From the IMG/VR virus record IMGVR_UViG_3300028596_000009, positions 32,001-96,000 of that record: a DNA stretch of 64,000 nt. The stretch is one strand, 5' to 3'. The stretch is from a virus. Both the position numbers and the translations under genes were made by a program. The notes under the pieces were generated by a model that was given only the letters and a program-made list of their open reading frames with translations, had not been told where the DNA came from and searched no databases. Positions 26,949 through 39,733 of this stretch are shown one piece after another; the stretch's first letter is position 1, and the number at the start of each line of letters is the position of its first letter.

Positions 26949-28550
26949 TGGAACGCAAGGACATCTACGTCGGTATGAAGGTCAAGGTCTTCGACGTCAA
27001 CGGGCGCCGCCTCGGTCAGCCCGACGAGGGCTGGGACGGTGAGGTTGTGGCCGTCCGGCGCACCAAGTGCGACATCGAGTACGGCAGCGGCGACCCGCGC
27101 CAGCGGACGTTCGACATCGACAGCCAGCACGTCGAGGACAACTACCGACACCGCTACTTCCGGACGCTGGAGGAGGCCGAGACGGTCGCACGCACCAGCG
27201 CTGCCCGTGCGGTCATCAACGACAAGATCGTCCGTGAGGGCATGTCCCGCATCCCGCTGGAGAAGCTGGAGGCCATCGCCGCCATCCTCCAGGAGGAGAC
27301 GTGAGGCGCCGGGCGCTGGAGCGCAAGGGGACCTGCCGGGTCTTCTGGGGATCCCACGGATGCTCCAAGCAGCGCGGACACATTGGGCAGCACGTGTGCT
27401 CCACAGGGTGCATCCCGTGCCCTGAGCAAGGGGCGTTCGGATCGGACTGGAACGAACAGTCCTACGCCGAGCAGCTCCAGGACTGGAGGCGGCACCGCGC
27501 CGCCATCGGCAAGCCGTCGGATCTCGACCGGGATCCCTGGTGAGCCACTGGTACGGGGCCTTCTGCCCCACGTGTGCCGCCTTCAGCAACACCATCAGGT
27601 AACACCACACAGGAAAGCGAGAAAGACCATGGGTTGGCTCAAGCCGTCCTCGTCCACCACCACCACCACCGAGGGGCAGTCCCCCACCGTCGGCGCCAAG
27701 CAGGACGCCAAGGTCAAGAAGAACGAGCGCGACGGCATCACCTTCTGGTCCGAGTCCACCTCGGAGAACAAGGCGCCGGAGGTCAAGAAGTGAGCGACTA
27801 CAACGAGCCGGTTCCGGACGTTCCCGACCTGGGCGCCGAGCTGGTCCAGCAGTGTCACGACCTGCACGCGGCGATGCACGCGGCGATCGATGCCCGCGAG
27901 GAGGAGCAGAAGTGAGCGAACAGCCGGACTGGTCGAAGTTCCCCGACTCGATGCTCGTGGCCGTGGCCGGGGAGATGGCTCTGGAGCGGAAGCACTCCGA
28001 GGAGTTCGCCGAGGCCCTGCGTGCGATCGGCTTCCCCGAGACCCTGGCTGCGGTTCGCGAGGGCAGGGTCAGGCCGTTCATGGAGGCCGTCGAAGAGGAG
28101 TGGGCGAACCTGAGCGCCGAGGGGGAGCAGGGCTGATGGGCTTCAAGGTGAACTGGTCGAACTACCCGGCGACCGCTGCCCGGGTCGAGGAGAAGAAGTT
28201 ATCGGCGGAGGCCGGGCAGTACCTGGCCTCGCAGTCCGGTGAGGAGTCGTCCGGCAACAGCCAGGCGCATACCGAGGAGGGGGAGGAGTGACGCTCGACC
28301 GCATCCCCGTGAACCACGGACACAGCGAGGACGGGTCGACGGGCGGCGGTTCGGATACCACCGAGCCGGACGGACATCCCGAGGACTGACCTCGGCACAC
28401 AGGACGCGGCTGCTGAATGTCGGCGGTCGCGCCCACCCGTGCCTGACACTTTCTAACCGGAGACGGTTGCGAAGTGTCGGTGCGTGTGTCACTATCTACT
28501 TAGACGATCGCCAAGGGGAACGGCGGTCCAAGGAAACGGAGAAAGAACAG

Positions 28551-29186
28551 ATGACCACGGTTGACTTCAACAAGCACCTCGCGAGCGGCAACTCGCTCAC
28601 CCTCGACGGCCACATCCGACTGGGCGCCGCGTGGGACGTCTCCTCCCGGGGTCAGGGCGGCCTGAAGGGCATGCTCTCCCGCTTCGTCGGCGCCGACATC
28701 GACGCGGTCGCCCTCATCGTGGAGAACGGCCAGCCCACCGCTCTCGCGGGCCTGAACAACAACGACCCGCTGGACAACGGTTCCGTCCTGCACTCCGGCG
28801 ACAACGAGAACGGCAAGGCCGACGGCGACGACGAGATCATCGACCTCCACCTCGGCCGCATTCCGTCCGGTGTCGACAAGATCTACCTCGCCATCACGGC
28901 CTACAAGAAGATCAACCAGGCCATGAACAAGATCACCGGAACGTCCGGCTTCGGCGGCGCCGACAACCCCAAGTTCAAGCTCTACGACATGGCCTCCGAC
29001 GCCAAGAACCCGATCTTCACCGTGAAGCCCCCGATGACCTCCACCGAGAACACGTGGGTCATGGGCGTTCTCACCCCCACGCCCGGGAAGCCCGGCTTCT
29101 GGGAGCTGACGAAGGTCGACAAGCGCATCGACGTCAAGTACGACGACCGCGACGACCTCGTCCGCCAGATCATGGCCTCCGCCTGA
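28551..29186 (+). CDS. TerD/TerZ-family stress protein
   Basis: LGAAWD, DIDAVA, HSGDNENGKADGDDEII. Confidence 0.85.
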   Translation: MTTVDFNKHLASGNSLTLDGHIRLGAAWDVSSRGQGGLKGMLSRFVGADIDAVALIVENGQPTALAGLNNNDPLDNGSVLHSGDNENGKADGDDEIIDLHLGRIPSGVDKIYLAITAYKKINQAMNKITGTSGFGGADNPKFKLYDMASDAKNPIFTVKPPMTSTENTWVMGVLTPTPGKPGFWELTKVDKRIDVKYDDRDDLVRQIMASA

Positions 29187-29273
29187 CCTGCGAGTCCTCT
29201 CCGTCTTCGGCACACCGCCGGAGGCGGGGGGAATCCGCAGATCATCGCGGTACAACCGAAGGAGAAAGACAGC

Positions 29274-29939
29274 ATGGGTTTCTTCACCAAGAAGGACAAG
29301 GACATCCCCGCCGACATGGGTGCGCTGGTCGAGAAGGCCCGCATCTCCCTGGTCAAGCACGGCATCGGCGACCTGAAGGCGGCCGTCTACCTGGTCCTGG
29401 ATCACTCGGGATCCATGTCGAGCTACTACCGCAACGGTGACGTGCAGAAGCTTGCCGAGCGGGCGCTGGGCCTGTCGGCCAACCTCGACGACGACGGCAT
29501 CGTGCCGGTCGTGCTGTTCGCCGACCACGCCGAGAAGATCCAGGAAGTCAGCGTCACCGACTACATCGGCGCCGCCGAGCGGCTGTCCTCCCAGGCGCAG
29601 TGGGGAGGTACCAACTACATCGCCGCCATCGACGCCATGGTGGAGCACTACGGGAAGTCCGGCTCCACCGACCCGGCCCTCGTCATCTTCCAGACCGACG
29701 GCGACCCCGCCTTCAGGGCCGAGACCACCGAGAAGATTCGGTCGCTGCGCGGCAAGAACGTCTTCATCGCCTTCGTGTCCTTCGGTTCGAGCGTGCCCTA
29801 CCTCAACACCCTCGACAACCTCGGCACCGGCCGCGAGGACATCGTCTCGCACTTCAGGGCGCCGAAGCCGTCGCAGGTGACCGACGAGGAGCTGTACGAC
29901 GGCATCACCGGCGAGTTCGCTCGGTGGGTCAAGAGCTGA
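29274..29939 (+). CDS. Ter-associated vWA domain protein
   Basis: LVLDHSGSM, WGGTNY, FQTDGDP, LDNL. Confidence 0.85.
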   Translation: MGFFTKKDKDIPADMGALVEKARISLVKHGIGDLKAAVYLVLDHSGSMSSYYRNGDVQKLAERALGLSANLDDDGIVPVVLFADHAEKIQEVSVTDYIGAAERLSSQAQWGGTNYIAAIDAMVEHYGKSGSTDPALVIFQTDGDPAFRAETTEKIRSLRGKNVFIAFVSFGSSVPYLNTLDNLGTGREDIVSHFRAPKPSQVTDEELYDGITGEFARWVKS

Positions 29940-30038: not shown

Positions 30039-30112
30039 CGAGATGTAGCTCAGCCTGGTAGAGCACCGCCCTGATAAGGCGTTTGTCGCTGGTTCGAATC
30101 CAGCCCTCTCGA
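30039..30112 (+). tRNA. tRNA-Ile(GAT)
   Basis: Cloverleaf, loop CTGATAA, GGTTCGAATCC; one acceptor-stem mismatch. Confidence 0.85.
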
Positions 30113-30177
30113 CAAGGAACCCGCCCTCGGCTCCCCCGGGGCGGGTTTCGTCATATCCGGACAACGAAAGGACCGAC

Positions 30178-30930
30178 ATGCAGGAAGTTATAGGGGGGTT
30201 CGTCAAGACACTCGAAGAGTTCGAGACGCATCTGAACCGACACGGCTGGACGACCTCGCGCGAGGAACTCCGGTCCAAGGACAAGCCCCTGCTCAAGCAG
30301 ACCGTGACAGGGCGACAGGGCGAGTTCTGGGCCCGAGCCGTCTACACGCGGCGCAAGGTGGAGACCGACGCCGACCAGATCCACTTCGACTACACAGGCG
30401 CCTACCTGCCCGAGGGCGGGGACCAGCCACGGTGGTCGGTGTTCAAGACCTACGACGACATCATGCGGTTCGTCCACGAGTACGACATCACGCTCCTGGT
30501 GGCTTCCGGGCCCCCACCCACGCCGAAGTCCCATCAGTGCAGGTGCGGGAAGGTCCGTCACACCAAGGCGATAGCTCACGGGATCCTGCGCAAGTCGCAG
30601 CGAGAACGGCGCCGCATGGGACCGAGCAGCAACCGGATGGAAGAGCGGGTCTACGCCTGCCCGACCGACAGCAAGGTCTTCCATCTGACCTCACGCAAGC
30701 ACTGGACCGAGGAGACACCCGAGGGGAGGGAGAAGACCGATGGGCGCAGCACCGGCGATCCGGATGCCAGCGGAGTTGGAGCAGTTCGACCGGCGGATAC
30801 GGCTGATGGGGTGGGCGACCGAGCGGTGCCTGGAAAGGGACGACGTCAACCTCAGGTACCGAAGGCACGTGACCGCTCGCCGGGGCGGCTTCCGGGTGAA
30901 GGTCCTGATGGTGAAGAAGGTGATGTCTGA
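30178..30930 (+). CDS. Hypothetical protein with Cys/His Zn-finger-like C-domain
   Basis: CRCGK...YACPTDSKVFHLTS; 3' end overlaps the next gene. Confidence 0.6.
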   Translation: MQEVIGGFVKTLEEFETHLNRHGWTTSREELRSKDKPLLKQTVTGRQGEFWARAVYTRRKVETDADQIHFDYTGAYLPEGGDQPRWSVFKTYDDIMRFVHEYDITLLVASGPPPTPKSHQCRCGKVRHTKAIAHGILRKSQRERRRMGPSSNRMEERVYACPTDSKVFHLTSRKHWTEETPEGREKTDGRSTGDPDASGVGAVRPADTADGVGDRAVPGKGRRQPQVPKARDRSPGRLPGEGPDGEEGDV

Positions 30931-31303
30931 CGGATCGTCGATCACCAACACCTGGCATCTCGGCTCGTACACCTTGAGCGGCAAGCCGCACTGGTGCTAC
31001 CTCAGGAGCGAGTACGACATGTGGGCCTTCGCCGAGACCTTCGACACCAGCCTGCTGATCTCCCCGTTCACCCACGAGCCTGTCATCTTCCGTGTGCCGC
31101 CTCCCGCACCTCCTCCGGAGAACGTCTCGAAGTGCATGTGCGAGAAGGAGGAGCTGACGGAGCGGGAAGCCCGTGAGGCTGTCGAGCAGGCGCTGATCCG
31201 CAGGGTCCTGCGGGGGTCAAGGAGACGCCAGGAGCGATCCCACTACCCGTGCCCCACTCAGCCCAAGGTTTTCCATCTCACGTCCCAGGAGGACAGGTAC
31301 TGA
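30740..31303 (+). CDS. Paralog of the previous gene
   Basis: CMCEK...YPCPTQPKVFHLTS. Confidence 0.65.
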   Translation: MGAAPAIRMPAELEQFDRRIRLMGWATERCLERDDVNLRYRRHVTARRGGFRVKVLMVKKVMSDGSSITNTWHLGSYTLSGKPHWCYLRSEYDMWAFAETFDTSLLISPFTHEPVIFRVPPPAPPPENVSKCMCEKEELTEREAREAVEQALIRRVLRGSRRRQERSHYPCPTQPKVFHLTSQEDRY

Positions 31304-31581
31304 TGAGTGGCACATCAAGGCGCCACCGGCGTCGCGATCCTCACTGGAGGACGCTTCGCGACCTGCTCAACGACGGGCGCCCAGGCCCCACGGCTGCGCA
31401 GATCACGCACACCCTCTTCGACGCCGGGGTGACCTCTCCGGAGAAACTGCGCCGGATGACGCCCGCTGAAGTGAAGGCGATCGAGGGCCTGGGGGCCAAG
31501 GCGCAAACCCGAGTGATCTTGCTCAGGAAACGTCTGGACGACGCGGCTCGATCCAGCACCGACACGGACAAGGAGAACTGA
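31303..31581 (+). CDS. HhH / RNA polymerase alpha-CTD-like protein
   Basis: LFDAGVTSPEKLRRMTPAEVKAIEGLGAKA. Confidence 0.55.
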   Translation: MSGTSRRHRRRDPHWRTLRDLLNDGRPGPTAAQITHTLFDAGVTSPEKLRRMTPAEVKAIEGLGAKAQTRVILLRKRLDDAARSSTDTDKEN

Positions 31582-32361
31582 CATGAGCGCATGGTCCGAC
31601 CGTTTGATGCAGGGCTCTCGCGCCAGGATCGTCGATCACGGCAACGGAGTAGTCGTCCACGGATCCGGCGAGCCGGTGCTGTCCGTGCTGGACGTCCTGG
31701 GCGCCGAGCTGGAGGACATCTTCGTCATCGGCATCAACGACCGGTGCGGATCCCTGGTCGTCCCCACCCAGGAGAAGGCGGAGCGCCTGGGTGTGCTGAT
31801 GAACCCCGCCTACAAGGTGAAGATCAAGGCTCCGGAGCGAGGTACCAACTGGAAGGTCGACTACGACCAGAGGAACCTCGACGGCACCGTGGACAGCAAC
31901 TTCATCATCAACGTCACGCTGAAGGACGGGCGTGTCGTCATGAAGGACGGCAAGTGGATCGAGAAGGAGAACTGACATGGCGGAGCTGACGAAGGTGAAC
32001 CTGAAGAGCGGCTCGTTCTTCAACCTCACCGGCATCACCGAGCAGGAGCGCTCGACCCTCGCGGTGGCGCTCGACGTGCTCACCAAGAACTTCCCGCAGG
32101 GAAACCCCGAGGTGTCCCGGGCCGTTTCCCTGATGAAGGCGCTCGGCGTGGTCTTCCCGGCACAGAAGGGCAACGGGCGATGAGCGACGCGCTCTGGTAC
32201 GACAACCACACGCTGCCCAAGAGATTCGACCTGTGCAGGCTGAGCAGCCGGGAGCGTGGGCTGATCCAGGACGGCCTGGCCGCCCTGCTGGCCGCTCTTC
32301 CCCAGGGGCACACCCTCCGTACCGAAGTTGCCGACCTCATCACCGCCCTGAAGGGGGACTC

Positions 32362-32640
32362 GTGAACCTGACTCGCCCCGAGAAGCCCGCCAGCGGCCCG
32401 TACAGGGTCCAGTTCAGTCCGGAGGCCCTCAGGCTCCTGAACGGCCTCCCGAAGGACCGTCGTGACGAGCTGACGGCCTACATCGACAGCAACGTGGCTG
32501 AGGATCCCTACGCGCAGGGCGACCCGTCCTTCGTGCGGGATCGGCGCGTCCTGTCCGTCGGCAGTGTCACGATCACCTGCATGGTCACCGATGTCACGCG
32601 CATGGTGACCGTGATCGACTTGACCGACGTGCCGGAGTGA
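32362..32640 (+). CDS. RelE-fold-like protein
   Basis: YRVQFSPEALRLLNGLP...DPY...VTVIDL. Confidence 0.5.
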   Translation: MNLTRPEKPASGPYRVQFSPEALRLLNGLPKDRRDELTAYIDSNVAEDPYAQGDPSFVRDRRVLSVGSVTITCMVTDVTRMVTVIDLTDVPE

Positions 32641-33024
32641 ACCGTGAGGAGCGTGAGCGTCGGTTCCTGCTTCCCCGTGGGGATGAGTCGCGGGAGATAC
32701 TGCTGCGAATAGCACAGATGAAGCCCTACGAAAGAGGTGACGATGACCACGCTCCTGGTCCACAGGGTGTCGCTCGACGAGTACTCCGACATGCGTGAGG
32801 CGGAGATGCTCACGTGCTTCCTGAACACGGGCAACGAGATTCTTCGGATCGGTCCGGATGATCGCGTCGATCCGTGGAAGGAGATCGAGAGGGTCGCCGC
32901 CGAGACCGGTGACGACGAGGTCGTCATTGTGAGGAAGTGCCTGGATTGAGCCCCATAAGGAGACCGTGCCGTCTGTTTCTCCGGCTACCTCGCCAACCCC
33001 GGCTGGGTAGGTCCGGAGGAATCC

Positions 33025-33195
33025 ATGAAGAACAGCGCACACCGTCGCTGGAAGGGCTGCTGCCTGTTGTGTGCCGTGGGCAGCGGCAAGGTGAAGGGCT
33101 TCGGCCGTCACGCGAAGGATCCGTTCGCCGTCCGTCGCGCGGTCGGAAAGTCGCGGCGTCTGACCAGGAAGTACCTCGGCGACTACGAGAACTAG
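33025..33195 (+). CDS. Small basic CxxC protein (not in ORF track)
   Basis: GGAGG RBS; MKNSAHRRWKGCCLLCAVGSGKVKG... Confidence 0.55.
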   Translation: MKNSAHRRWKGCCLLCAVGSGKVKGFGRHAKDPFAVRRAVGKSRRLTRKYLGDYEN

Positions 33196-33383
33196 TTGCA
33201 AGATTCCTGAAGAACGCCTAACCTCTTTTTGGGGATACCGCGCAGGGGCGCCACTGCTTACTCAACAGGGGCGCCCCGGCTTGGAAAGCTCTTCGGAATG
33301 GTCAGTTGCCTAACGGCAACTGTGTGGGATGGCTACCCACATTGCAGTACGGACGCTCCGGTATCGAACATCGGGGCGTTTAT

Positions 33384-33465
33384 GGGGACTGTGGCGGAAT
33401 TGGTAGACGTTGGTGGTCGAGGGTGCCTCCCTGGCCGTGCGGGTTCGAATCCCGTCAGCTCCCCC
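33384..33465 (+). tRNA. Degenerate tRNA-Leu-like gene
   Basis: Leu-type D loop GGCGGAATTGGTAGACG and GGGTTCGAATCCC; anticodon arm pairs poorly. Confidence 0.55.
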
Positions 33466-33498
33466 TGGCCGTTGAATGCGAGGATGGCCTCTCGCGCT

Positions 33499-33575
33499 GG
33501 GTGTGTAGTCCAACAGCAGAGACAGCGGCCCGAACGCCGTGACAGTGCCGGTATCGAATCCGGCCACACCCGCCA
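33499..33575 (+). tRNA. Atypical tRNA, 6-nt anticodon loop (CCGAAC), encoded CCA
   Basis: GGGTGTG/CACACCC acceptor, GCGGC/GCCGT anticodon stem. Confidence 0.6.
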
Positions 33576-33648
33576 GCCCTCGTAGCTCACTCGGTAGAGC
33601 AGCTCCCTCGTAAGGAGCAGGCAGCAGGTTCGATCCCTGTCGAGGGCT
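33576..33648 (+). tRNA. tRNA-Thr(CGT)
   Basis: Canonical cloverleaf, loop CTCGTAA. Confidence 0.9.
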
Positions 33649-33727
33649 CTGGGTGACCGTGGTGTCCGCAACGCACACCGATCGTATTTCGGAGGAGCGG
33701 GCCGACCCCGCCGGTTACCCTGCACAA

Positions 33728-33817
33728 GGACAGAGCTTGCGTCGTTGGCCAGACGCGGGGTGTCGTACGCACCTTGCCCCGACGGGGGCTCCGGAGGTTC
33801 GAATCCTTCTCTGTCCA
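33728..33817 (+). tRNA. Atypical tRNA-Tyr(GTA)-like, class II
   Basis: GGACAGA/TCTGTCC acceptor, enlarged D stem, loop TCGTACG (C33), variable arm GCCCC-GACG-GGGGC. Confidence 0.6.
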
Positions 33818-33888
33818 CGCGGGCCCCATATGGGGCGACAGGGCCAAGTGGGCCCCTGCTCGTTCGAACCGAGGAGAAAGCCCACCCA

Positions 33889-33961
33889 GGATCTGTAGCT
33901 CAGGAGTGAGAGCGCTCGCCTGAAAAGCGAGAGGTCGATGGTGCGACTCCATCCGGATCTA
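33889..33961 (+). tRNA. tRNA-Phe(GAA)
   Basis: Loop CTGAAAA, T loop TGCGACT. Confidence 0.85.
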
Positions 33962-34107
33962 CGCTAGGGACCCACCAGACTGGATATGGGATGGGCGCCG
34001 GTGAAGGCATCGGACATATGGGCGCAGGCCCCACCCGATGAGATAGCCCGGCTCCATGTGGGTGCGCGGCTCTGTCGACGGACAGGGACGTAGGAGAGTT
34101 CAGTCAC

Positions 34108-34182
34108 GCCTTCGTAGCTCAGCCTGGTCAGAGCACTCGCCTGTCGAGCGAAAGGTCGCCGGTTCGAATCCGGTCGAGGGCG
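34108..34182 (+). tRNA. tRNA-Asp(GTC)
   Basis: Loop CTGTCGA, G73. Confidence 0.88.
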
Positions 34183-34250
34183 CGCCCCATAGGATCCTCC
34201 TGTGACACCTGGCGGTGACGGCCCCGGTGTGTGCCCGGTAAGCACACGAG

Positions 34251-34321
34251 GTCCCTGTAGCTCAGTTGGTACGAGCACCCTCAACGGTGGGAGGTCGCCG
34301 GTTCGACCCCGGCCAGGGACA
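34251..34321 (+). tRNA. tRNA with truncated anticodon loop (identity undetermined)
   Basis: Perfect acceptor/D/T arms; anticodon arm CCCTC-AACG-GTGGG. Confidence 0.65.
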
Positions 34322-34394
34322 CGATGAAGGTGAGGGGTACCGTCACGTGGGAGAGAGACCCGTAGGCTGGTCCTTCTGGAAGAAACCCCCTCAG

Positions 34395-34467
34395 GCTCCT
34401 GTAGCTCAGTGGATAGAGCATCCGCCTTCTAAGCGGAGGGTCGCTGGTTCGAGCCCAGCCGGGGGCA
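34395..34467 (+). tRNA. tRNA-Arg(TCT)
   Basis: Loop CTTCTAA, canonical arms. Confidence 0.92.
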
Positions 34468-34597
34468 CCGAGTCAGTCGGCATCGCGGTAACGCCGCAGG
34501 GAATCAGGACAAGTGGTGATTGGTCCTGCATGGTGGCCTACATTCTCTGCGGGACTGGCTCTCCATGGGCCTTCTGGGTCATGAAAACGTACTGCAC

Positions 34598-34670
34598 GGT
34601 CTTGTAGCTCAGCGGATAGAGCGGTCGTCTCCTAAACGACAGGTCACTGGTTCGAATCCAGTCAGGATCA
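34598..34670 (+). tRNA. tRNA-Arg(CCT)
   Basis: Loop CTCCTAA, canonical arms. Confidence 0.92.
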
Positions 34671-34752
34671 CGGGTCTTCGGCGGTTTGTTGGCACAGCAC
34701 CGAGGACTAGGGCGGGGGCGTCGGCATAGGGCGTTCAAATCCCCGCCCGCAC

Positions 34753-34827
34753 TGGGGTGTGGCTCAGATGGACAGAGCGCCGATTACAACTCGGAGACCG
34801 CAGGTTCGAAGCCTGCCACCCCAACCA
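34753..34827 (+). tRNA. Atypical tRNA: Pro-like body, 4-bp anticodon stem, apparent ACA anticodon, CCA end
   Basis: TGGGGTG/CACCCCA acceptor; CCGA-TTACAAC-TCGG. Confidence 0.65.
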
Positions 34828-34883
34828 GGGCCCCCGGCGACTGGACCCCCCGGGGGCCCTTTCCCATGGAAAGGGGAGAGGGC

Positions 34884-35366
34884 ATGGCCAAGTTCGTCCG
34901 CATCGAGGCGGAGCTGTTCACCGGGATCGCCTACTGGGCCCGGATCGAGTACTACGAGGCCGGTCCGGGACATGTCCACGTGATCGACGACTACCGGGAT
35001 TACGCGGAGTACATCGCGCCGGGCGCCGAGACCTCCCTTCAGGGAGTGTTCATGCGCGAGTCCGGCGAGTGGGGTGAGATCTGGATGCCGTGCCCCGACA
35101 ACGTCGAGTTCGTCGCCAAGGGCGCCATGCTGGCCTCGCTGCGCAGCCACGCGGAGGGATGGGACGCGTACCTCCAGCCCACCCTGAGCTTCTTTTTCGA
35201 CAACACCGGCAGCGTGTTTCCGCTGGCCATGGAGGACATCTCGTCGGCTCTGTCGCACAAGATTCCCATCGGCTCGTACGTTACCTTCGAGGCGGCGAAG
35301 GATGCCGTCGGTGTCCACGCCAGGCCGTACGACGGGGAGAAGCGGCGCGTTCCGTACATCTGGTAA
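34884..35366 (+). CDS. Hypothetical protein
   Basis: RBS GGAAAGGGGAG, open frame. Confidence 0.65.
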   Translation: MAKFVRIEAELFTGIAYWARIEYYEAGPGHVHVIDDYRDYAEYIAPGAETSLQGVFMRESGEWGEIWMPCPDNVEFVAKGAMLASLRSHAEGWDAYLQPTLSFFFDNTGSVFPLAMEDISSALSHKIPIGSYVTFEAAKDAVGVHARPYDGEKRRVPYIW

Positions 35367-35372
35367 ACCGGC

Positions 35373-35401
35373 TTGCGGTGAACGACCGCCAAGGGTAATG
35401 T
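35373..35401 (+). promoter_or_regulatory. Sigma70-type promoter for the Y-RNA/Ro locus
   Basis: TTGCGG-N17-TAATGT. Confidence 0.6.
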
Positions 35402-35410
35402 CTTCCTTGC

Positions 35411-35481
35411 ACACCGGCACGATCGACAGCGGCTACTTCAATCGGTGAACTCACGCCGCAGTCTACTTTTTGGTCGGGTGT
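35411..35481 (+). ncRNA. Y RNA-like unit 1
   Basis: CGGCACG...CGGCTACTTC...GCCGC...CTTTTTGGTCG with closing stem. Confidence 0.65.
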
Positions 35482-35588
35482 CACGGGCCTCCTGATGGGG
35501 AGGCGGCACGAAGGTAACGGCTACTTCACTGGTAATGAAACGACGCCGTCACCGTCTTTTTGGTCGTCACCTCTTCAGGAGGCCCGTG
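35482..35588 (+). ncRNA. Y RNA-like unit 2 with anticodon-like loop CTGGTAA
   Basis: 14-bp perfect closing stem 35482-35495/35575-35588; same core motifs as unit 1. Confidence 0.7.
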
Positions 35589-35751
35589 CTGCTGAGATGG
35601 ATGCTCGGCACGCAGGCATGCGGTTACTTCCACTGTTAATGGGGTGGTTGCGGGTTCGAATCCCGCCGGGCCCTTCGGGACCTGTAGCTCAACGGCAGAG
35701 CACCTTGTTACCGCCGCCGACTTTTTGGCCGAGCATCCTTCTGAGCAGCAC
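35586..35751 (+). ncRNA. YrlA-like Y RNA containing a circularly permuted tRNA domain
   Basis: 11-bp stem 35599-35609/35728-35738 enclosing anticodon arm (CTGTTAA), T arm, TTCG-closed acceptor stem and D arm; adjacent to the Ro60 gene. Confidence 0.85.
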
Positions 35752-35756
35752 AGACA

Positions 35757-35790
35757 CCCCAGTCCGATTCCGGGCTGGGGTTTTCCTTTT
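35757..35790 (+). terminator. Intrinsic terminator between the Y RNAs and Ro60
   Basis: CCCCAGTCCG-ATTC-CGGGCTGGGG-TTTTCCTTTT. Confidence 0.7.
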
Positions 35791-35806
35791 GGAGAGGGGA
35801 AAGAAC

Positions 35807-37405
35807 ATGGCTCGCATGAACAACAAGCTGACGGCCGCGTCGCTGGTCTCCAGCGTCACCTCGGTCGCTCCGGCGGTCACCGCGCAGGGCGGGAAGGGGT
35901 ACACCAGGGACGCCAAGTCCGAGCTGTACCTCCTGGCCATCGCGAACTTCTACAACCAGGACACCTTCTACGAGACCGGCGACAAGCGCGACACCCGGTT
36001 CGCGGAGCTGGTCAAGAAGGTCGCGGTCGAGGATCTCGACTGGATCTCCAGCATGGCCGGGTGGCTGCGCTCGGGCGCCAACATGCGCACCGCGTCCCTG
36101 GTCATGGGTGTTGAGGCCGTCAAGGCCCGGCTGGACGCCCGGCTGTTCGAGGGCAACGCGAAGCTGCTGAACAGCGTCATGCAGCGCGCCGACGAGCCGG
36201 GCGAGGTCATCGCCTACTGGCGCTCGAAGTACGGCCGCACGCTGCCGGAGCCGGTCCTGAAGGCCCTGAAGTGGTCGGTGTCGCGGCTGTTCAACGAGCG
36301 GTCGTACCTCAAGTGGGACTCCTCCGCCCGGGGCATGTCCTTCGCGGACATCCTGCGGATCGTGCACCCGGACCCGGTGGCGGTGTGGCAGGACAAGCTG
36401 TTCAAGGCGATCCTCGACCGGTCCTTCGGTAACGAGGCCGACCTGGAGGGCCTCGACGTCCTGAAGCAGAACAGGCTCTGGCGTGAGCTGGTGGCCAGTG
36501 ATCCGACCTGCAAGCTTCTGCTCGACCCGGGCTTCATCAAGAGCGCGGGGCTCACGTGGGAGGACGTCCTGTCGGCGCTCGGCTCGAAGGTCAACAAGAA
36601 GCTCCTGTGGGAGGCGATCATCCCGTCGATGGGCTATATGGCCCTGCTGCGGAACCTCAGGAACTTCGACCAGGCCGGGGTGAGTGACGAGGTGGCCTCC
36701 GAGGTCATCGCCAAGCTGACCGACCCGGACGAAGTGGAGCGCTCCCGGCAGATGCCGATGCGGTTCTACTCGGCGTACAAGGCGGCGCCGTCGCTGCGCT
36801 GGGGCTACGCCCTGGAGAAGGCGCTGGAGATGACGCTGAAGAACATCCCGAAGCTGAAGGGCCGCACCCTCATCCTCGTGGACTCCTCGGGGTCCATGTC
36901 CGAGTCCTTCTCGAAGGACGGCTCGGTGCACCGGTGGGACGCGGCGGTGCTCTTCGGCGTCGCCCTGGCCCGCGAGTGTGCCGACGTGGACGTGGTCTCG
37001 TTCTCCTCGGGCTACTGGGGCGGACGCAGGCTCACCATGAACTTCCCGCTGGTGAAGGGGGAGTCGCTGCTGTCGGCGCTGAAGCGGTGGGAGAAGGACG
37101 GCTACTTCATCGGCGGCGGCACGGACACGGTGATGGCGCTCCAGGCCAGCTACCGGGACCACGACCGGGTGGTTATCCTGACCGACGAGCAGGCCGGGCA
37201 CGACGGCATCGAGGTCAGCAACGCCATCCCGGCGAAGGTGCCGCTGTACACGTGGAACCTGGCGGGCTACAAGGTCGGCCACGCGCCGTCGGGTTCGGGC
37301 AACCGGCACGTCTTCGGCGGCCTGACGGACAGTGCGTTCACCCAGATCGCCCTGCTGGAGAACCGGCGTGCCGGTTCCTGGCCGTGGCAGGTGGTGGGAG
37401 ACTAG
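35807..37405 (+). CDS. Ro60/Rsr TROVE-domain RNA-binding protein with C-terminal vWA
   Basis: DAKSELYLLA, FYE, QRADEPGE, MGYMALLRNLRNFD, LVDSSGSM, LTDEQ. Confidence 0.92.
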   Translation: MARMNNKLTAASLVSSVTSVAPAVTAQGGKGYTRDAKSELYLLAIANFYNQDTFYETGDKRDTRFAELVKKVAVEDLDWISSMAGWLRSGANMRTASLVMGVEAVKARLDARLFEGNAKLLNSVMQRADEPGEVIAYWRSKYGRTLPEPVLKALKWSVSRLFNERSYLKWDSSARGMSFADILRIVHPDPVAVWQDKLFKAILDRSFGNEADLEGLDVLKQNRLWRELVASDPTCKLLLDPGFIKSAGLTWEDVLSALGSKVNKKLLWEAIIPSMGYMALLRNLRNFDQAGVSDEVASEVIAKLTDPDEVERSRQMPMRFYSAYKAAPSLRWGYALEKALEMTLKNIPKLKGRTLILVDSSGSMSESFSKDGSVHRWDAAVLFGVALARECADVDVVSFSSGYWGGRRLTMNFPLVKGESLLSALKRWEKDGYFIGGGTDTVMALQASYRDHDRVVILTDEQAGHDGIEVSNAIPAKVPLYTWNLAGYKVGHAPSGSGNRHVFGGLTDSAFTQIALLENRRAGSWPWQVVGD

Positions 37406-37754
37406 TACCACCCGTCATCTCTCTGGCGGTGTCGAACCCCCTTGGTCGCTGGCCAGGGGGGTTCTTCATGTTCCACTGCTCCTGTGACTTGACGATGACC
37501 AGGCTCTTGTTAGATGATGGCCATGTGGAAATGACCCACGTGGAAAGGAGTGAAAGTGCCGTTTCTTCTCGGCGCTGGAGCGGGTCTCCTCGGAGGCATA
37601 GGGACGTATCTGGAGTGGCTGAGCGGCTGGGGAATCCCTGGTCACCACCTTCCTGCGGCCCTCGCCGTCGGCGGAGTCCTGTTCCTCATCGGTATCATCT
37701 TCGGGGTGGGAATCTTCATCCTCGGAGACCAGTAGAAAGAGGTAGAACGTGCCC

Positions 37755-38108
37755 ATGGAATTCGTCAGTGCGACCGCCGTGGCGGCGTACCTGGGCGTCA
37801 CAGCCGGATCCGTGCACAACTGGTGCACGAACCCTCCGGAAGGGTTCATCGAGCCCGACGCCGTCACCAGAGGGATCGACGGCAAGGTGGTCGCCCGCTC
37901 CTGGTTCCCCGAGAAGCTCCCGCAGATGCGCGAGTGGATGGAGAACCGGCTCAAGCTGGAGACCGAGATCGACAAGGCCAACCACTGGTCCCTGGTCAAC
38001 GAGGGCCTGAAGTCCAAGCGGGAGACCAAGCGCCGCAAGAAGCTCGGCATCTCCGATGGCCAGACGGCCATAGGAGTGGAGAAGTTCACCGGTGACGGTG
38101 GGCAGTGA
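37755..38108 (+). CDS. HTH (excisionase/MerR-like) DNA-binding protein
   Basis: SATAVAAYLGVTAGSVHNW. Confidence 0.65.
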   Translation: MEFVSATAVAAYLGVTAGSVHNWCTNPPEGFIEPDAVTRGIDGKVVARSWFPEKLPQMREWMENRLKLETEIDKANHWSLVNEGLKSKRETKRRKKLGISDGQTAIGVEKFTGDGGQ

Positions 38109-39733
38109 AGATACCTCGGCCTTACCAGTACGACATGATCCGCAGGCTGAAGAAGGACAACTCCGTCCTGATCGGCGCCGACATGGGAACAGGCAAGACC
38201 CTTGTCGCCGTGGAGATGATCCGGCATCTTCCGCCCGCACCGCGCGTTCTGTACATAGCGCCGAACAACACGCACAACCAGGTGATCGAAACGGTCGCCG
38301 AGCAGTTCCCTTCGCTCGAAGGATCCCCGTACCTGCGCAAGGTCGGCACACCGAGAGCGGACCCCGAGAGCTGGCAGCAGATCCTGGCGAAGAAGCCCGG
38401 CGTCTACGTCATCGGGTGGGAAGCGATGCACGGCGTCGTGCCGAGGGACATCCGCCTGAAGCACACGGCGAAGGGCAAGAAGGATCCCGACGTCACGGTC
38501 AAGGCGATCACCGAATGCATGAAGACCGGTCTCGTTCCCCCGTGGAACAAGGCAGGTACCTGGGACATGGTGGTGCTCGACGAGTCCCACCGGGTCCAGA
38601 ACCCGCACTCGCTCAACAAGAAGATCGTCAAGCAGATCAAGTCGATCTATAGGGTCGCGATGTCGGGCACACCGTCCGGCAACAAGCCCGAGGGTCTGTG
38701 GTCGACGCTCAACTGGCTCTGGCCGGACGAGTACCCGTCCTTCACCCGCTGGAAGGACTTCTACATGGAGTTCGAGGAGCGGGTCATCGGGCGGGGCATG
38801 ACGGTCCGCACCATCGTCGGGGAGGCGGCTCCCGGAGCCACCTGGCTGGACATACCCAACGCGATACGGGTCCGGCTGGAGGACATCGGCGTCCACCTTC
38901 CCGACGTGATCGAGCGCAGGGTCTATGTGCCGATGACCACGGAACAGCGCAAGGTGTACGACGACTTCGAGAAGCAGGCTATGGCCTGGATCGACGAGCA
39001 GCCGTACGCAGCACCGCTGCCGATCGAGAAGAGGATCCGCCTGAGGCAGGCTTCACTCGGCCCGCTGAAGGTGATCAAGAAGACCAAGCGCAAGGAACTC
39101 TGGATCGATCAGGGTGACGTGCACAAGGACTTGGTCACGGTCCTCGACGACGAAGGCAAGGAGTACACCGGCCGCGCCGTGAAGGTGCTCGATGCCCTGG
39201 GCTACTCATCGCTGGTGCTCTTCGAGTACGAGGAGGACCAGTTCGAGTTCCAGGAGAAAGCCGAGCACCACAAGGTCCAGGCCATCAGGGAGATCATCGC
39301 AGACCTTCCCCCGGGTGCTCCGGTCCTGGTTTTCACACACTCTGCCCGCTGGGCGCACCTGGCCCATGGCCTTCTGTCGAAGGCGAAGCTGGGTGAAGTG
39401 CGGGCCTGGACCGGTGAACTGAACCAGTCTCAGCGTGACGAGCTGAAGCTGGCGTTCGGTAAGTCGGTGAGGATCCTGATCGCGGTCATTCCGGCCGTGG
39501 CCGAGGGAATCGACGGCTGGCAGAACGTGTGCCGTTATGAAATCTGGGCCTCGAAGGCGGAGAACGCCCTGTTGAACGAGCAGGCCAAGGCGCGTCTTCA
39601 CCGTCCCGGACAGAAGTCCCCTGTGCAGCGATGGCTCATCCACTCGGAGAATTCCATCGACGACGGGGTGGAAGAGCGCCTGAACATACGTGGCCGTCGA
39701 CTGATGACCATGTACCGGGACGACCTGAAGTAA
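38105..39733 (+). CDS. SNF2-family (SF2) helicase
   Basis: GADMGTGKT, LDESHR, MSGTP, EGIDG, QAKARLHRPGQ. Confidence 0.92.
   Translation: MKIPRPYQYDMIRRLKKDNSVLIGADMGTGKTLVAVEMIRHLPPAPRVLYIAPNNTHNQVIETVAEQFPSLEGSPYLRKVGTPRADPESWQQILAKKPGVYVIGWEAMHGVVPRDIRLKHTAKGKKDPDVTVKAITECMKTGLVPPWNKAGTWDMVVLDESHRVQNPHSLNKKIVKQIKSIYRVAMSGTPSGNKPEGLWSTLNWLWPDEYPSFTRWKDFYMEFEERVIGRGMTVRTIVGEAAPGATWLDIPNAIRVRLEDIGVHLPDVIERRVYVPMTTEQRKVYDDFEKQAMAWIDEQPYAAPLPIEKRIRLRQASLGPLKVIKKTKRKELWIDQGDVHKDLVTVLDDEGKEYTGRAVKVLDALGYSSLVLFEYEEDQFEFQEKAEHHKVQAIREIIADLPPGAPVLVFTHSARWAHLAHGLLSKAKLGEVRAWTGELNQSQRDELKLAFGKSVRILIAVIPAVAEGIDGWQNVCRYEIWASKAENALLNEQAKARLHRPGQKSPVQRWLIHSENSIDDGVEERLNIRGRRLMTMYRDDLK

What the first reader, a model, noticed from the sequence alone, without database searches (positions are those of the whole stretch)
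35373..37405. Ro60 operon with three tandem Y-RNA-like units that display tRNA anticodon loops
Seen: one promoter (TTGCGG-N17-TAATGT) precedes three units sharing CGGCACG...CGGYTACTTC-[insert]-RCCGY...CTTTTTGGYCG. An inner helix shows compensatory changes (GAC/GTC, GGT/ACC, GGC/GCC). The inserts differ. Unit 1 has TTCA-ATCGG-TGAA. Unit 2 has TTCA-CTGGTAA-TGAA, a canonical 7-nt anticodon-type loop (Thr GGT). Unit 3 has a whole circularly permuted tRNA: TTCCA-CTGTTAA-TGGGG (Asn GTT), T arm, TTCG-capped acceptor stem, D arm. A terminator and the TROVE gene follow. Known: bacterial and phage YrlA RNAs next to Ro60 mimic tRNA D/T/acceptor arms, but as I recall them the Ro-binding stem replaces the anticodon arm. 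Inference: this is a modular Ro60-scaffolded array presenting non-chargeable anticodon decoys, for example against host anticodon nucleases or tRNA-modifying/sensing enzymes.
Basis: partly seen in the sequence, partly recalled or inferred. Interest (0 to 1): 0.92.

Follow-up and report, generated by a model that had tools for sequence, protein, structure and literature searches.

The report
Phage Ro60 gene with three Y RNAs
A large soil actinophage carries a Ro60 RNA-binding protein gene preceded by three partner "Y RNAs". One of them is a back-to-front tRNA look-alike that keeps a full anticodon arm; this RNA-protein pair is a known kind, but the anticodon arm was not described in the papers I could read.

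Summary
Three tandem units (about 35409-35481, 35485-35585 and 35586-35752) share a 5' handle, the motif GGYTACTTC, a hairpin and a 3' CTTTTTGGYCG. A promoter-like site precedes them; a terminator and a TROVE/Ro60 gene (35807-37405) follow.

This is a phage Ro60-Y RNA locus with two short YrlB-like RNAs and one YrlA-like tRNA mimic. It is not peculiar to this phage. About 160 Ro60 loci from actinobacterial chromosomes and actinophages carry mostly 1-3, up to 6, such units upstream of Ro60.

Covariation in 89 units shows what the hairpin before the T arm is:
- Its inner 3 pairs, plus 2 pairs made with the two bases that follow the D arm, form a 5-bp anticodon stem with a 7-nt loop (consensus CUNNNAA).
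- The domain is therefore a complete, circularly permuted tRNA, with the Ro60 handle leaving from inside the anticodon stem.
- Chen et al. 2014 noted this hairpin as a "V" (variable) arm.

The triplet changes about as often as the acceptor cap loop and the flanks, which I take as unconstrained, and it includes stop anticodons. The same design sits in host chromosomes. Other notes of this scan report similar Ro60-linked arrays on other DNA. Verdict: a new member of a known kind, with a useful structural refinement.

The parts
35373..35401 (+). Promoter-like site: TTGCGG (35373-78), 17-nt spacer, TAATGT (35396-35401)
   Evidence: Read from the sequence. It is not called by the E. coli-type scan. 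A TANNNT hexamer is enriched at this fixed distance before the first unit of arrays: 81/158 first units against 16/227 inner units. Satis and Frankenweenie carry the same hexamers.
35409..35481 (+). Y RNA unit 1 (short, YrlB-like). Handle CGGCACG at 35415, GGCTACTTC, hairpin TTCA-ATCGG-TGAA (35437-49, 5-nt loop), CTTTTTGGTCG at 35466-76
   Evidence: The fold of the whole transcript gives a separate long-stemmed unit. It aligns with 85 short units from other loci.
35485..35585 (+). Y RNA unit 2 (short, YrlB-like) with a long basal stem (CACGGGCCTCCTGA / TCAGGAGGCCCGTG). Its hairpin TTCA-CTGGTAA-TGAA (35525-39) has a 7-nt anticodon-type loop
   Evidence: Among 143 short units, 47 have 7-nt loops (7.9 expected) and 32 of those have U at loop position 2 and a purine at position 6 (1.05 expected).
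35586..35752 (+). Y RNA unit 3 (YrlA-like): a long basal stem and Ro60 handle carrying a circularly permuted tRNA-like domain
   Evidence: Rfam YrlA scores 40.4 bits, E 1.6e-7, below the gathering score of 69. My own model R1 scores 119.6 bits, E 4e-30. Fold.
35628..35704 (+). tRNA-like domain of unit 3, in order: UU linker 35628-29; CCA 35630-32; loop CUGUUAA 35633-39; UGG 35640-42; GG 35643-44 pairing with CC 35703-04; variable loop 35645-49; T arm 35650-66; acceptor stem capped by UUCG 35667-84; TA; D arm 35687-35701; A26 at 35702
   Evidence: Sequence. The composite anticodon stem is supported by covariation in 89 homologous units and by an analysis anchored on the arms that does not depend on the alignment.
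35756..35791 (+). Intrinsic terminator-like hairpin (11 bp) plus T tract, between the Y RNAs and the Ro60 gene
   Evidence: Equivalent hairpins stand at the same place in Satis, BRock, Kela and Frankenweenie.
35807..37405 (+). Ro60/Rsr-like protein (TROVE + vWA), 532 aa; the RBS GGAGAGGGG lies upstream
   Evidence: Pfam TROVE 1.4e-19. phrog_850 1.2e-51. PDB 9KOP/9L5Y 2e-24. It is 50-56% identical to Ro60 of actinobacteria and IMG/VR phages from residue 1. The longer in-frame ORF from 35495 overlies units 2 and 3 and is not the gene.
37434..37464 (+). Terminator-like hairpin after the Ro60 gene

Best explanation
This is the Ro60 (Rsr)-Y RNA module of a large actinophage.

Shown or strongly indicated:
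- One promoter-like site precedes the three RNA units, a terminator follows them, and the Ro60 gene lies just downstream.
- Each unit has a long basal stem and a conserved handle (5' GGCACG-NN-GG... paired with ...CUUUUUGGYCG).
- The handle corresponds to the published Ro60-binding region of bacterial Y RNAs.
- Units 1 and 2 are short YrlB-type RNAs that end in a hairpin.
- Unit 3 is a YrlA-type tRNA mimic.
- In this actinobacterial and actinophage branch the mimic is a complete, circularly permuted tRNA. It has a T arm, a closed 7-bp acceptor stem, a D arm, a 5-nt variable loop and a 5-bp anticodon stem with a 7-nt CUNNNAA loop.
- The anticodon stem is composite. Two pairs come from the strand after the D arm and three from the incoming 5' strand. 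The Ro60 handle therefore leaves the tRNA body as the third arm of a three-way junction.

Inferred, by analogy with D. radiodurans, Salmonella, M. smegmatis and Thermus phage phiLo:
- The precursor is cut into three Y RNAs, and each binds the phage Ro60 ring through its handle.
- The distal module tethers or gates partner proteins that recognise tRNA shape, such as an exoribonuclease like PNPase, or RNase P, the CCA-adding enzyme, or tRNA-modifying or repair enzymes.
- The phage thereby redirects RNA turnover or repair during infection.

The triplet in the loop is not read as an anticodon. Only the loop's shape is conserved.
For: Locus anatomy.

Family:
- TACTTC occurs 188 and 197 times on the Ro60 strand upstream of Ro60 in 80 bacterial and 81 viral loci. 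It occurs 12 and 10 times on the other strand.
- 240 units were classed as tRNA-like and 146 as short.
- YrlA-like Rfam hits lie upstream of Ro60 in all 7 GenBank actinophage loci examined.

Structure:
- 95.9% of cells are paired, against 74.7% in shuffles and 34-47% when partners are slid.
- Pairs 42:28' and 43:27' are 97% paired, with changes on both sides in 32 and 27 sequences.
- Pairs 30:40 and 31:39 covary.
- The acceptor stem is 7 bp and all 7 pairs covary.
- The rival local pairs 27:43 and 28:42 are only U-G or U-A and never change on both sides.

Loop in 109 non-redundant units: U33 79%, A37 79%, A38 83%; positions 34-35 carry 0.13-0.20 bits; 37 distinct triplets.

Known biology:
- YrlA and YrlB lie upstream of rsr and come from one precursor.
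- M. smegmatis YrlA, which has a 7-bp acceptor stem, is cut by RNase P and receives CCA (PMC4201824).
- Phage phiLo Ro60 binds two upstream Y-like RNAs and host PNPase (PMC12135203).
- The closest solved structure to the window's protein is that phage Ro60.
Against: - No transcript, processing or binding data exist for this phage.
- Rfam YrlA does not reach its gathering score on unit 3 (40.4 against 69).
- The handle differs by one extra base from the published GNCGAAN0-1G motif.
- The partner of the tRNA-like domain is unknown even in the model organisms.
- The three-way-junction fold rests on covariation, not on probing or a structure.
- About a third of the tRNA-like units in the family lack a 17-nt arm, so the arm is not obligatory.
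Confidence: 0.75

Rival explanations
1. Anticodon-decoy array. The Ro60-bound RNAs present non-chargeable anticodon stem-loops that soak up, or sense, host anticodon nucleases or anticodon-loop-binding enzymes, and so protect the tRNA pool of the phage or host.
For: - The loops copy the anticodon-loop frame (C32, U33, A37, A38; 7 nt) on a 5-bp stem. This holds in tRNA-like units and in a third of short units, far above shuffles.
- Different units of one array carry different triplets.
- The locus lies next to a 10-tRNA cluster.
- In phage Kela an RNA ligase gene abuts Ro60.
- The literature links Ro60 with a tRNA-like partner to RNA repair (PMC7824862).
Against: - The same design is common in host chromosomes.
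- Triplet positions 34-35 change about as often as the acceptor cap loop and the flanks, not faster (31-34 against 22-33 parsimony changes).
- Stop anticodons CTA, TTA and TCA occur 6 times in 109, about the random share.
- U1 and many short units have loops of 3-6 nt.
- About a third of tRNA-like units lack the arm.
- No nuclease partner is encoded nearby in the window.
Confidence: 0.13
2. Working split tRNA. After RNase P cleavage in the acceptor cap and CCA addition, as in M. smegmatis YrlA, unit 3 becomes a two-piece tRNA-Asn-like molecule. It is aminoacylated, and it delivers or senses an amino acid while held on Ro60.
For: - All four arms, a 7-bp covarying acceptor stem and a GUU loop are present.
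- GTT is the commonest triplet in the family, 18 of 109.
- M. smegmatis YrlA gains CCA in vivo (PMC4201824).
- The model R1 scores tandem tRNA-Asn junctions highly.
Against: - The triplet drifts freely and includes stop anticodons.
- The cap in the window is a stable cUUCGg tetraloop with no encoded CCA.
- There is an A-C mismatch at 3:70.
- No evidence exists for charging of any Y RNA.
Confidence: 0.03
3. Decayed tRNA genes, or a structured leader. The units would be remnants of the neighbouring tRNA cluster, or an attenuator that only regulates Ro60 translation or transcription, and not stand-alone RNAs.
For: - The units lie just downstream of a tRNA cluster, separated from it by one ORF (34686-35366), and upstream of Ro60.
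- A terminator stands between them and the gene.
- GenBank annotators called some homologous units tRNAs.
Against: - The helices covary strongly and the order of parts is fixed across about 160 loci in many genera and phages.
- The handle is shared by short and long units and matches the Ro60-binding region.
- Homologous RNAs in M. smegmatis are stable and bound by Rsr (PMC4201824).
Confidence: 0.03

Closest known systems
YrlA (Y RNA-like A; Rfam RF02553) of S. Typhimurium, M. smegmatis and mycobacteriophages (Chen et al. 2014, PMC4201824; Wang et al. 2018, 10.1101/312249)
   Same: - It is encoded next to Ro60/rsr on the same strand.
- A 5' handle resembles GNCGAAN0-1G.
- The conserved YUAY motif is present (UUAC here).
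- The T arm, a closed acceptor stem-loop and the D arm come in that permuted order.
- The acceptor stem is 7 bp, as in M. smegmatis.
- A stem-loop precedes the T arm, the 'V' of Chen et al.
- Bixzunavirus phage Alice gives a full-length hit to my model with the same pairs.
   Different: - Salmonella YrlA 'lacks the anticodon loop', and its anticodon-stem equivalent runs straight into the Ro60 stem.
- Here the hairpin stacks on two covarying pairs to give a 5-bp stem and a 7-nt CUNNNAA loop, and the Ro60 handle leaves as a side arm.
- The Rfam model reaches only 31-47 bits on these RNAs, against a gathering score of 69.
YrlB / Yrn2-type short Y RNAs (Salmonella, M. smegmatis, D. radiodurans; PMC4201824)
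   Same: - A second, shorter Ro60-bound RNA is encoded beside YrlA.
- It is made from the same precursor.
[quoted passage not shown]
   Different: - The window has two such units.
- In this family the terminal hairpin follows the same UAC-UUC motif as in YrlA.
- In about a third of cases the loop is a 7-nt anticodon-type loop.
Thermus phage phiLo Ro60 with Yrl1 and Yrl2 (PMC12135203; PDB 9KOP, 9L5Y)
   Same: - The phage encodes its own Ro60, with Y-like RNAs just upstream of the gene.
- The paper reports binding of the RNAs and formation of a complex with host PNPase.
- It is the closest solved structure to the window's protein.
   Different: - No tRNA-like or anticodon feature is reported for Yrl1 or Yrl2.
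- That phage has two RNAs, not three.
D. radiodurans Yrn1
   Same: Chen et al. 2014 modelled a possible 'anticodon arm' with a 5-bp stem in this Y RNA.
   Different: - Its loop has 6 nt.
- The arms lie in a different orientation.
- The authors judged that it evolved independently.
Circularly permuted tRNA genes of Cyanidioschyzon merolae and some archaea (recalled from my own knowledge, not checked here)
   Same: The 3' half is encoded before the 5' half, with the acceptor ends joined by a short linker.
   Different: Those genes are processed, through a circular intermediate, into normal chargeable tRNAs. Here the break carries a Ro60-binding stem and the acceptor stays capped.

Membership tests
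YrlA-type bacterial/phage Y RNA (unit 3) | Encoded within about 2-4 kb of a Ro60/TROVE gene on the same strand | tested here: met
   Unit 3 ends 55 nt before the Ro60 start codon, on the same strand.
YrlA-type bacterial/phage Y RNA (unit 3) | Ro60-binding motif GNCGAAN0-1G near the 5' end, in a basal stem formed by the 5' and 3' ends | tested here: inconclusive
   The window has GGCACGCAGG in U3, GGCACGAAGG in U2 and GGCACGATCG in U1. The family consensus is GGTGCG(C/A)AGG. That is one base longer than the published motif. The basal stem covaries (helix 1).
YrlA-type bacterial/phage Y RNA (unit 3) | Nearly invariant T and D stem-loops with a closed acceptor-like stem-loop between them | tested here: met
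   The T loop (GGTTCGAATCC) and the D arm (AGCTCA..GG..AGAGC) are present. The acceptor helix is 96.9% paired and all 7 pairs covary.
YrlA-type bacterial/phage Y RNA (unit 3) | Conserved YUAY motif before the V region | tested here: met
   UUAC lies at 35624-27. TAC is invariant in alignments A2 and A3, but those units were selected by the word TACTTC. Its strand bias of 188:12 and 197:10 is independent of that selection.
YrlA-type bacterial/phage Y RNA (unit 3) | Score at or above the Rfam RF02553 gathering threshold | tested here: not met
   40.4 bits against 69, with E 1.6e-7 over the full model length. Relatives score 31-47 bits. The shortfall falls where the hairpin replaces the model's long stem.
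YrlA-type bacterial/phage Y RNA (unit 3) | Bound and stabilised by Ro60 | not testable with these tools
   This needs immunoprecipitation and northern blots or RNA sequencing.
YrlB-type short Y RNA (units 1 and 2) | [quoted passage not shown] | tested here: met
   The handle and 3' motif are shared with U3. Each folds as a single long hairpin. They align with 85 short units of other loci. Binding was not tested.
Canonical tRNA gene | Cloverleaf in the normal 5'-to-3' order with free acceptor ends and a conserved, meaningful anticodon | tested here: not met
   ARAGORN does not call U3. The Rfam tRNA model gives 22 bits against 29. The order is permuted, the acceptor is capped by UUCG, and the triplet is not conserved among orthologous units.

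The most novel reading that the evidence does not exclude
In Actinobacteria and their phages, Y RNAs are complete, circularly permuted tRNAs, probably born from a tandem tRNA-Asn junction. Their conserved anticodon stem-loop is itself the functional bait. Ro60 would hold out tRNA and anticodon-arm look-alikes to enzymes that attack, modify or repair anticodon loops. The particle would then work as a decoy, sensor or repair platform in the contest over tRNA between phage and host.
Probability: 0.15. Interest if true: 0.8.

Novelty: new member of a known kind. Interest (0 to 1): 0.5.

Why it matters
The partner and purpose of the tRNA-like domain of bacterial Y RNAs have been open since 2014. 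These data show that in a large branch (Streptomyces, Nocardia, Amycolatopsis, Dactylosporangium and many actinophages) the mimic includes a true anticodon-arm equivalent. Its loop frame is conserved and its triplet is free. That narrows the search to factors that read the whole L-shape or the anticodon-loop fold rather than the anticodon itself.

The work also yields three practical items:
- A covariance model that finds these RNAs where Rfam's YrlA model falls below threshold.
- Annotation errors to fix in GenBank phage records: tRNA-Ser(gct) in Alone3, tRNA-Arg(tct) in VanLee, tRNA-Pro(tgg) in Frankenweenie, and small CDSs laid over YrlA in phage Alice.
- A plausible origin, from tandem tRNA-Asn genes 4-5 nt apart.

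For phage biology, it is one more case of a phage carrying its own Ro60 particle beside its tRNA cluster.

Tried and rejected
1. The outer two pairs are rejected. The 5' TT is invariant and gives only U-G or U-A, with 8-20 mismatched sequences per pair, while bases 42-43 covary with the two bases after the D arm.
2. The classical long anticodon stem (post-D strand 27'-31' with 39-43). It is rejected beyond the second pair: 29':41, 30':40 and 31':39 are only 6-16% Watson-Crick.
3. De-permuting units and running ARAGORN. It called 101 of 109 as tRNA, but also 92 of 109 with a shuffled arm, so the test does not discriminate.
4. Faster-than-background change of the triplet. There is no excess over the acceptor cap loop and flanks.
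5. RNAalifold on the MAFFT alignment of short units recovered only the basal stem, because the hairpin region is misaligned. I used an alignment-free hairpin count instead.
6. The Rfam gathering search found only tRNAs in the window.
7. The supplements of Chen 2014, the 2020 Annual Review and Burroughs & Aravind 2016 are not held. I therefore could not inspect published M. smegmatis YrlA drawings or earlier decoy proposals.
Phage Alice and a Nocardia genome served as stand-ins.
9. Neighbouring genes gave no RNA ligase or nuclease partner in the window; they are TerD, vWA-TerF and an SNF2 helicase.
Full report
**What is in the window**

The window belongs to an IMG/VR virus record of 166.8 kb. 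Earlier notes of this scan call it a large soil actinophage. The layout on the + strand is:
- A cluster of ten tRNA genes at 30039-34827.
- One ORF with no family match (34686-35366).
- A promoter-like TTGCGG-N17-TAATGT at 35373-35401.
- Three RNA units.
- A terminator at 35756-35781.
- A 532-aa TROVE + vWA protein at 35807-37405.

The protein matches Pfam TROVE at 1.4e-19 and phrog_850 'RNA-binding protein' at 1.2e-51. Its best solved relative is the Ro60 of Thermus phage phiLo (9KOP/9L5Y, 2e-24). The in-frame ORF that starts at 35495 overlies units 2 and 3. Relatives align from residue 1 of the 35807 start, so 35807 is the real start. Chen et al. report the same kind of over-extension for M. 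smegmatis.

**Checking the observation**

- CGGCACG-N8-9-GGYTACTTC occurs three times in 64 kb, at 35415, 35504 and 35606, with 0 expected.
- CTTTTTGGYCG occurs three times, at 35466, 35556 and 35721, with 0.06 expected.
- The 388-nt stretch folds into three separate long-stemmed units plus the terminator, at -188 kcal/mol and z = -7.5.
- Rfam's YrlA model matches unit 3 end to end at 40.4 bits (E 1.6e-7). That is below its gathering score of 69, and the mismatches fall where the model expects a long stem but the sequence has a hairpin.

**Relatives**

I collected Ro60 loci from three sources:
- GenBank actinophages BRock, Alone3, Satis, VanLee, Trax, Kela and Frankenweenie.
- About 90 IMG/VR contigs.
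- 80 actinobacterial genomes, including Streptomyces, Amycolatopsis, Nocardia, Dactylosporangium, Micromonospora and Nocardiopsis.

All have Ro60 proteins 40-56% identical to the window's. Upstream of Ro60, the word TACTTC occurs 188 times (bacteria) and 197 times (viral) on the gene's strand. It occurs 12 and 10 times on the other strand. Most loci hold 1-3 copies, some up to 6. I classed 240 units as tRNA-like and 146 as short. A three-unit array is therefore ordinary for this family.

A TANNNT hexamer lies 34-41 nt before the TAC of the first unit in 81 of 158 arrays, against 16 of 227 inner units. This supports one promoter per array. In BRock and Alone3 the array instead follows directly on a tRNA-Asn gene.

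**What the hairpin is**

I took 109 non-redundant tRNA-like units that have 17 nt between TAC and the variable loop. This is the dominant class; 109 of 169 parsed units fall in it. Their loop has this composition:

| Position | Result |
|---|---|
| Loop form CTNNNAA | 60 of 109 |
| U33 | 79% |
| A37 | 79% |
| A38 | 83% |
| Positions 34 and 35 | 0.20 and 0.13 bits |
| Distinct triplets | 37 |

An alignment of 89 units (A2) was scored against explicit structures. Overall, 95.9% of cells pair, against 74.7% in shuffles and 34-47% when partners are slid.

The decisive results are these:
- Bases 42 and 43 pair with the two bases that follow the D arm and base 26. They are 97% paired. Pair types are GC 54, AU 25, CG 5, UA 2 for one pair and GC 59, CG 18, AU 7, UA 2 for the other.
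- The inner three pairs of the hairpin covary. Pair 30:40 is CG 57, GC 15, UA 5. Pair 31:39 is AU 59, CG 10, GC 3, UA 3.
- The post-D strand does not pair beyond its second base.

The anticodon stem is therefore composite. Pairs 27'-28' with 42-43 come from the 3' side, and pairs 29-31 with 39-41 come from the 5' side. They are stacked through the continuous strand 39-43. The Ro60 handle leaves between them, so the fold is a three-way junction. With a 5-nt variable loop, a T arm, a 7-bp covarying acceptor stem and a D arm, the domain keeps standard tRNA numbering throughout.

In the window the pairs are CCA/UGG (35630-32 with 35640-42) and GG/CC (35643-44 with 35703-04), with loop CUGUUAA.

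**Relation to the literature**

Chen et al. 2014 (PMC4201824) describe YrlA next to Ro60 in more than 250 bacteria and 22 phages. [quoted passage not shown] They show that M. smegmatis YrlA and YrlB lie upstream of rsr and come from one precursor. They also show that YrlA, with its 7-bp acceptor stem, is cut by RNase P and receives CCA.

Wang et al. 2018 state that Salmonella YrlA 'lacks the anticodon loop'.

So the hairpin and the UUAC motif are known. What I did not find in any held paper is two points:
- In the actinobacterial branch the hairpin is an anticodon-arm equivalent with a 7-nt U33/A37/A38 loop.
- The two pairs that show this covary.

I could not see the published figures or supplements. 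Bixzunavirus phage Alice belongs to the mycobacteriophage group known to encode Ro60. It gives a full-length hit to my model (69 bits) with CUC-AUUGAAA-GAG and the AG/CU pairs.

**Short units**

Alignment-free hairpin finding on 143 non-redundant short units gave the following:

| Measure | Observed | Expected from shuffles |
|---|---|---|
| 7-nt loops | 47 | 7.9 |
| 7-nt loops with U at position 2 and a purine at position 6 | 32 | 1.05 |

Loops of 3-6 nt are also common. Unit 2 (CUGGUAA) fits the anticodon-type class. Unit 1 (AUCGG, 5 nt) does not. [quoted passage not shown]

**Is the triplet under special selection?**

I built a tree without the loop columns and counted parsimony changes per column:

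| Column | Changes |
|---|---|
| 34 | 31 |
| 35 | 34 |
| 36 | 21 |
| 37 | 17 |
| 32 | 10 |
| 33 | 5 |
| 38 | 4 |
| Acceptor cap loop and flanking columns | 22-33 |

The first two triplet positions change about as often as the acceptor cap loop and flanks, which I take as unconstrained. They do not change faster. Stop anticodons (CTA, TTA, TCA) make up 6 of 109, about the random share.

The simplest reading is that the shape is conserved and the identity is not. Position 36 is T in 61% of units. Together with A37 and A38, this is the signature of the tRNAs that receive t6A37. That point rests on my own knowledge and is only an idea.

**Distribution and origin**

My covariance model R1 scores unit 3 at 119.6 bits and VanLee's unit at 121.9 bits. 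It finds full-length hits in 5 of 151 evenly sampled Actinomycetota genomes at E <= 1e-10. G086's full-length hit (61.8 bits) falls within the score range of the tRNA-Asn junction hits and was not inspected, and G042's only hit is such a junction (8 of 151 in all). Ro60 is patchy in this phylum. One of the five genomes, G051 (82.9 bits), is flagged unpublished, so that one count rests on it.

The partial hits (model positions 33-109, 62-70 bits) are all junctions of two tandem tRNA-Asn(GTT) genes 4-5 nt apart. That arrangement already contains, in the right order, an anticodon arm, T arm, acceptor strands joined by a short linker, and a D arm. GTT is also the commonest loop triplet, 18 of 109. 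This suggests the domain arose from a tandem tRNA-Asn junction. It is an inference, not a shown result.

**Function**

Nothing here tests function.

By analogy with published systems, each RNA should bind the phage Ro60 through its handle. The distal module should tether or gate tRNA-shape-reading partners. Published examples include PNPase in D. radiodurans, Salmonella and phage phiLo (PMC12135203).

The decoy idea remains possible, but four observations weigh against it:
- The design is present in host chromosomes.
- The triplet changes no faster than the unconstrained positions.
- Many units have non-anticodon loops.
- The window encodes no linked nuclease or ligase. Kela does have an RNA ligase beside Ro60.

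**Other work in this scan**

Other notes of this scan report similar arrays of anticodon-arm RNAs around Ro60-like genes in unrelated phages. Another reader of this same genome independently noted the permuted tRNA-Asn in unit 3. I treated these as leads, not as evidence.

**Verdict**

The locus is a new member of the known Ro60-Y RNA kind. The functional claim is unproven.

Noticed in passing
L002:1190-1263 (Alone3), L004:1120-1191 (VanLee), L007:991-1081 (Frankenweenie), L187:972-1311 (Alice): GenBank features tRNA-Ser(gct), tRNA-Arg(tct) and tRNA-Pro(tgg) just upstream of Ro60 overlap full-length hits of my Y-RNA model (50, 122 and 69 bits). They are most likely Y-RNA tRNA-like modules, not tRNAs. 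In phage Alice two small CDSs (gp218, gp219) overlie the YrlA hit.
   Followed up: partly
L188:55-206, L189:55-206, L190:73-225, L183:1455-1606: Actinobacterial genomes carry two tRNA-Asn(GTT) genes in tandem only 4-5 nt apart. The junction scores 62-70 bits with the permuted Y-RNA model, which suggests an origin for the YrlA tRNA-like domain.
   Followed up: partly
window 33385-34827: The tRNA cluster upstream holds odd members by ARAGORN: an 81-nt tRNA-Pro(agg), a 91-nt tRNA-Tyr, a 'tRNA-???' with a 2-base anticodon at 34251-34322, and tRNA-Cys(aca). Only 7 of the 10 reach the Rfam tRNA threshold.
   Followed up: no
L001:3492-3655 and L002:3383-3615: Sub-threshold manA RNA (RF01745) matches (49.7 and 47.8 bits; gathering score 55.2) lie between tRNA-Lys genes downstream of Ro60 in phages BRock and Alone3.
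   Followed up: no
window 28239-29939 and 38105-39733: A TerD-domain protein and a vWA-TerF-like protein lie upstream of the tRNA cluster. An SNF2-type helicase follows the Ro60 locus.
   Followed up: no
L022:148 and L023:151: Two low-GC IMG/VR phage contigs with a distant Ro60 (27-28% identity) also carry ...CGAAGCAGCAAATACGGTTACTTC... near the gene. The GGUUACUUC motif therefore reaches beyond actinophages.
   Followed up: no
L006:475-1227: In Streptomyces phage Kela an annotated RNA ligase gene sits directly between the Y RNA array and Ro60.
   Followed up: no
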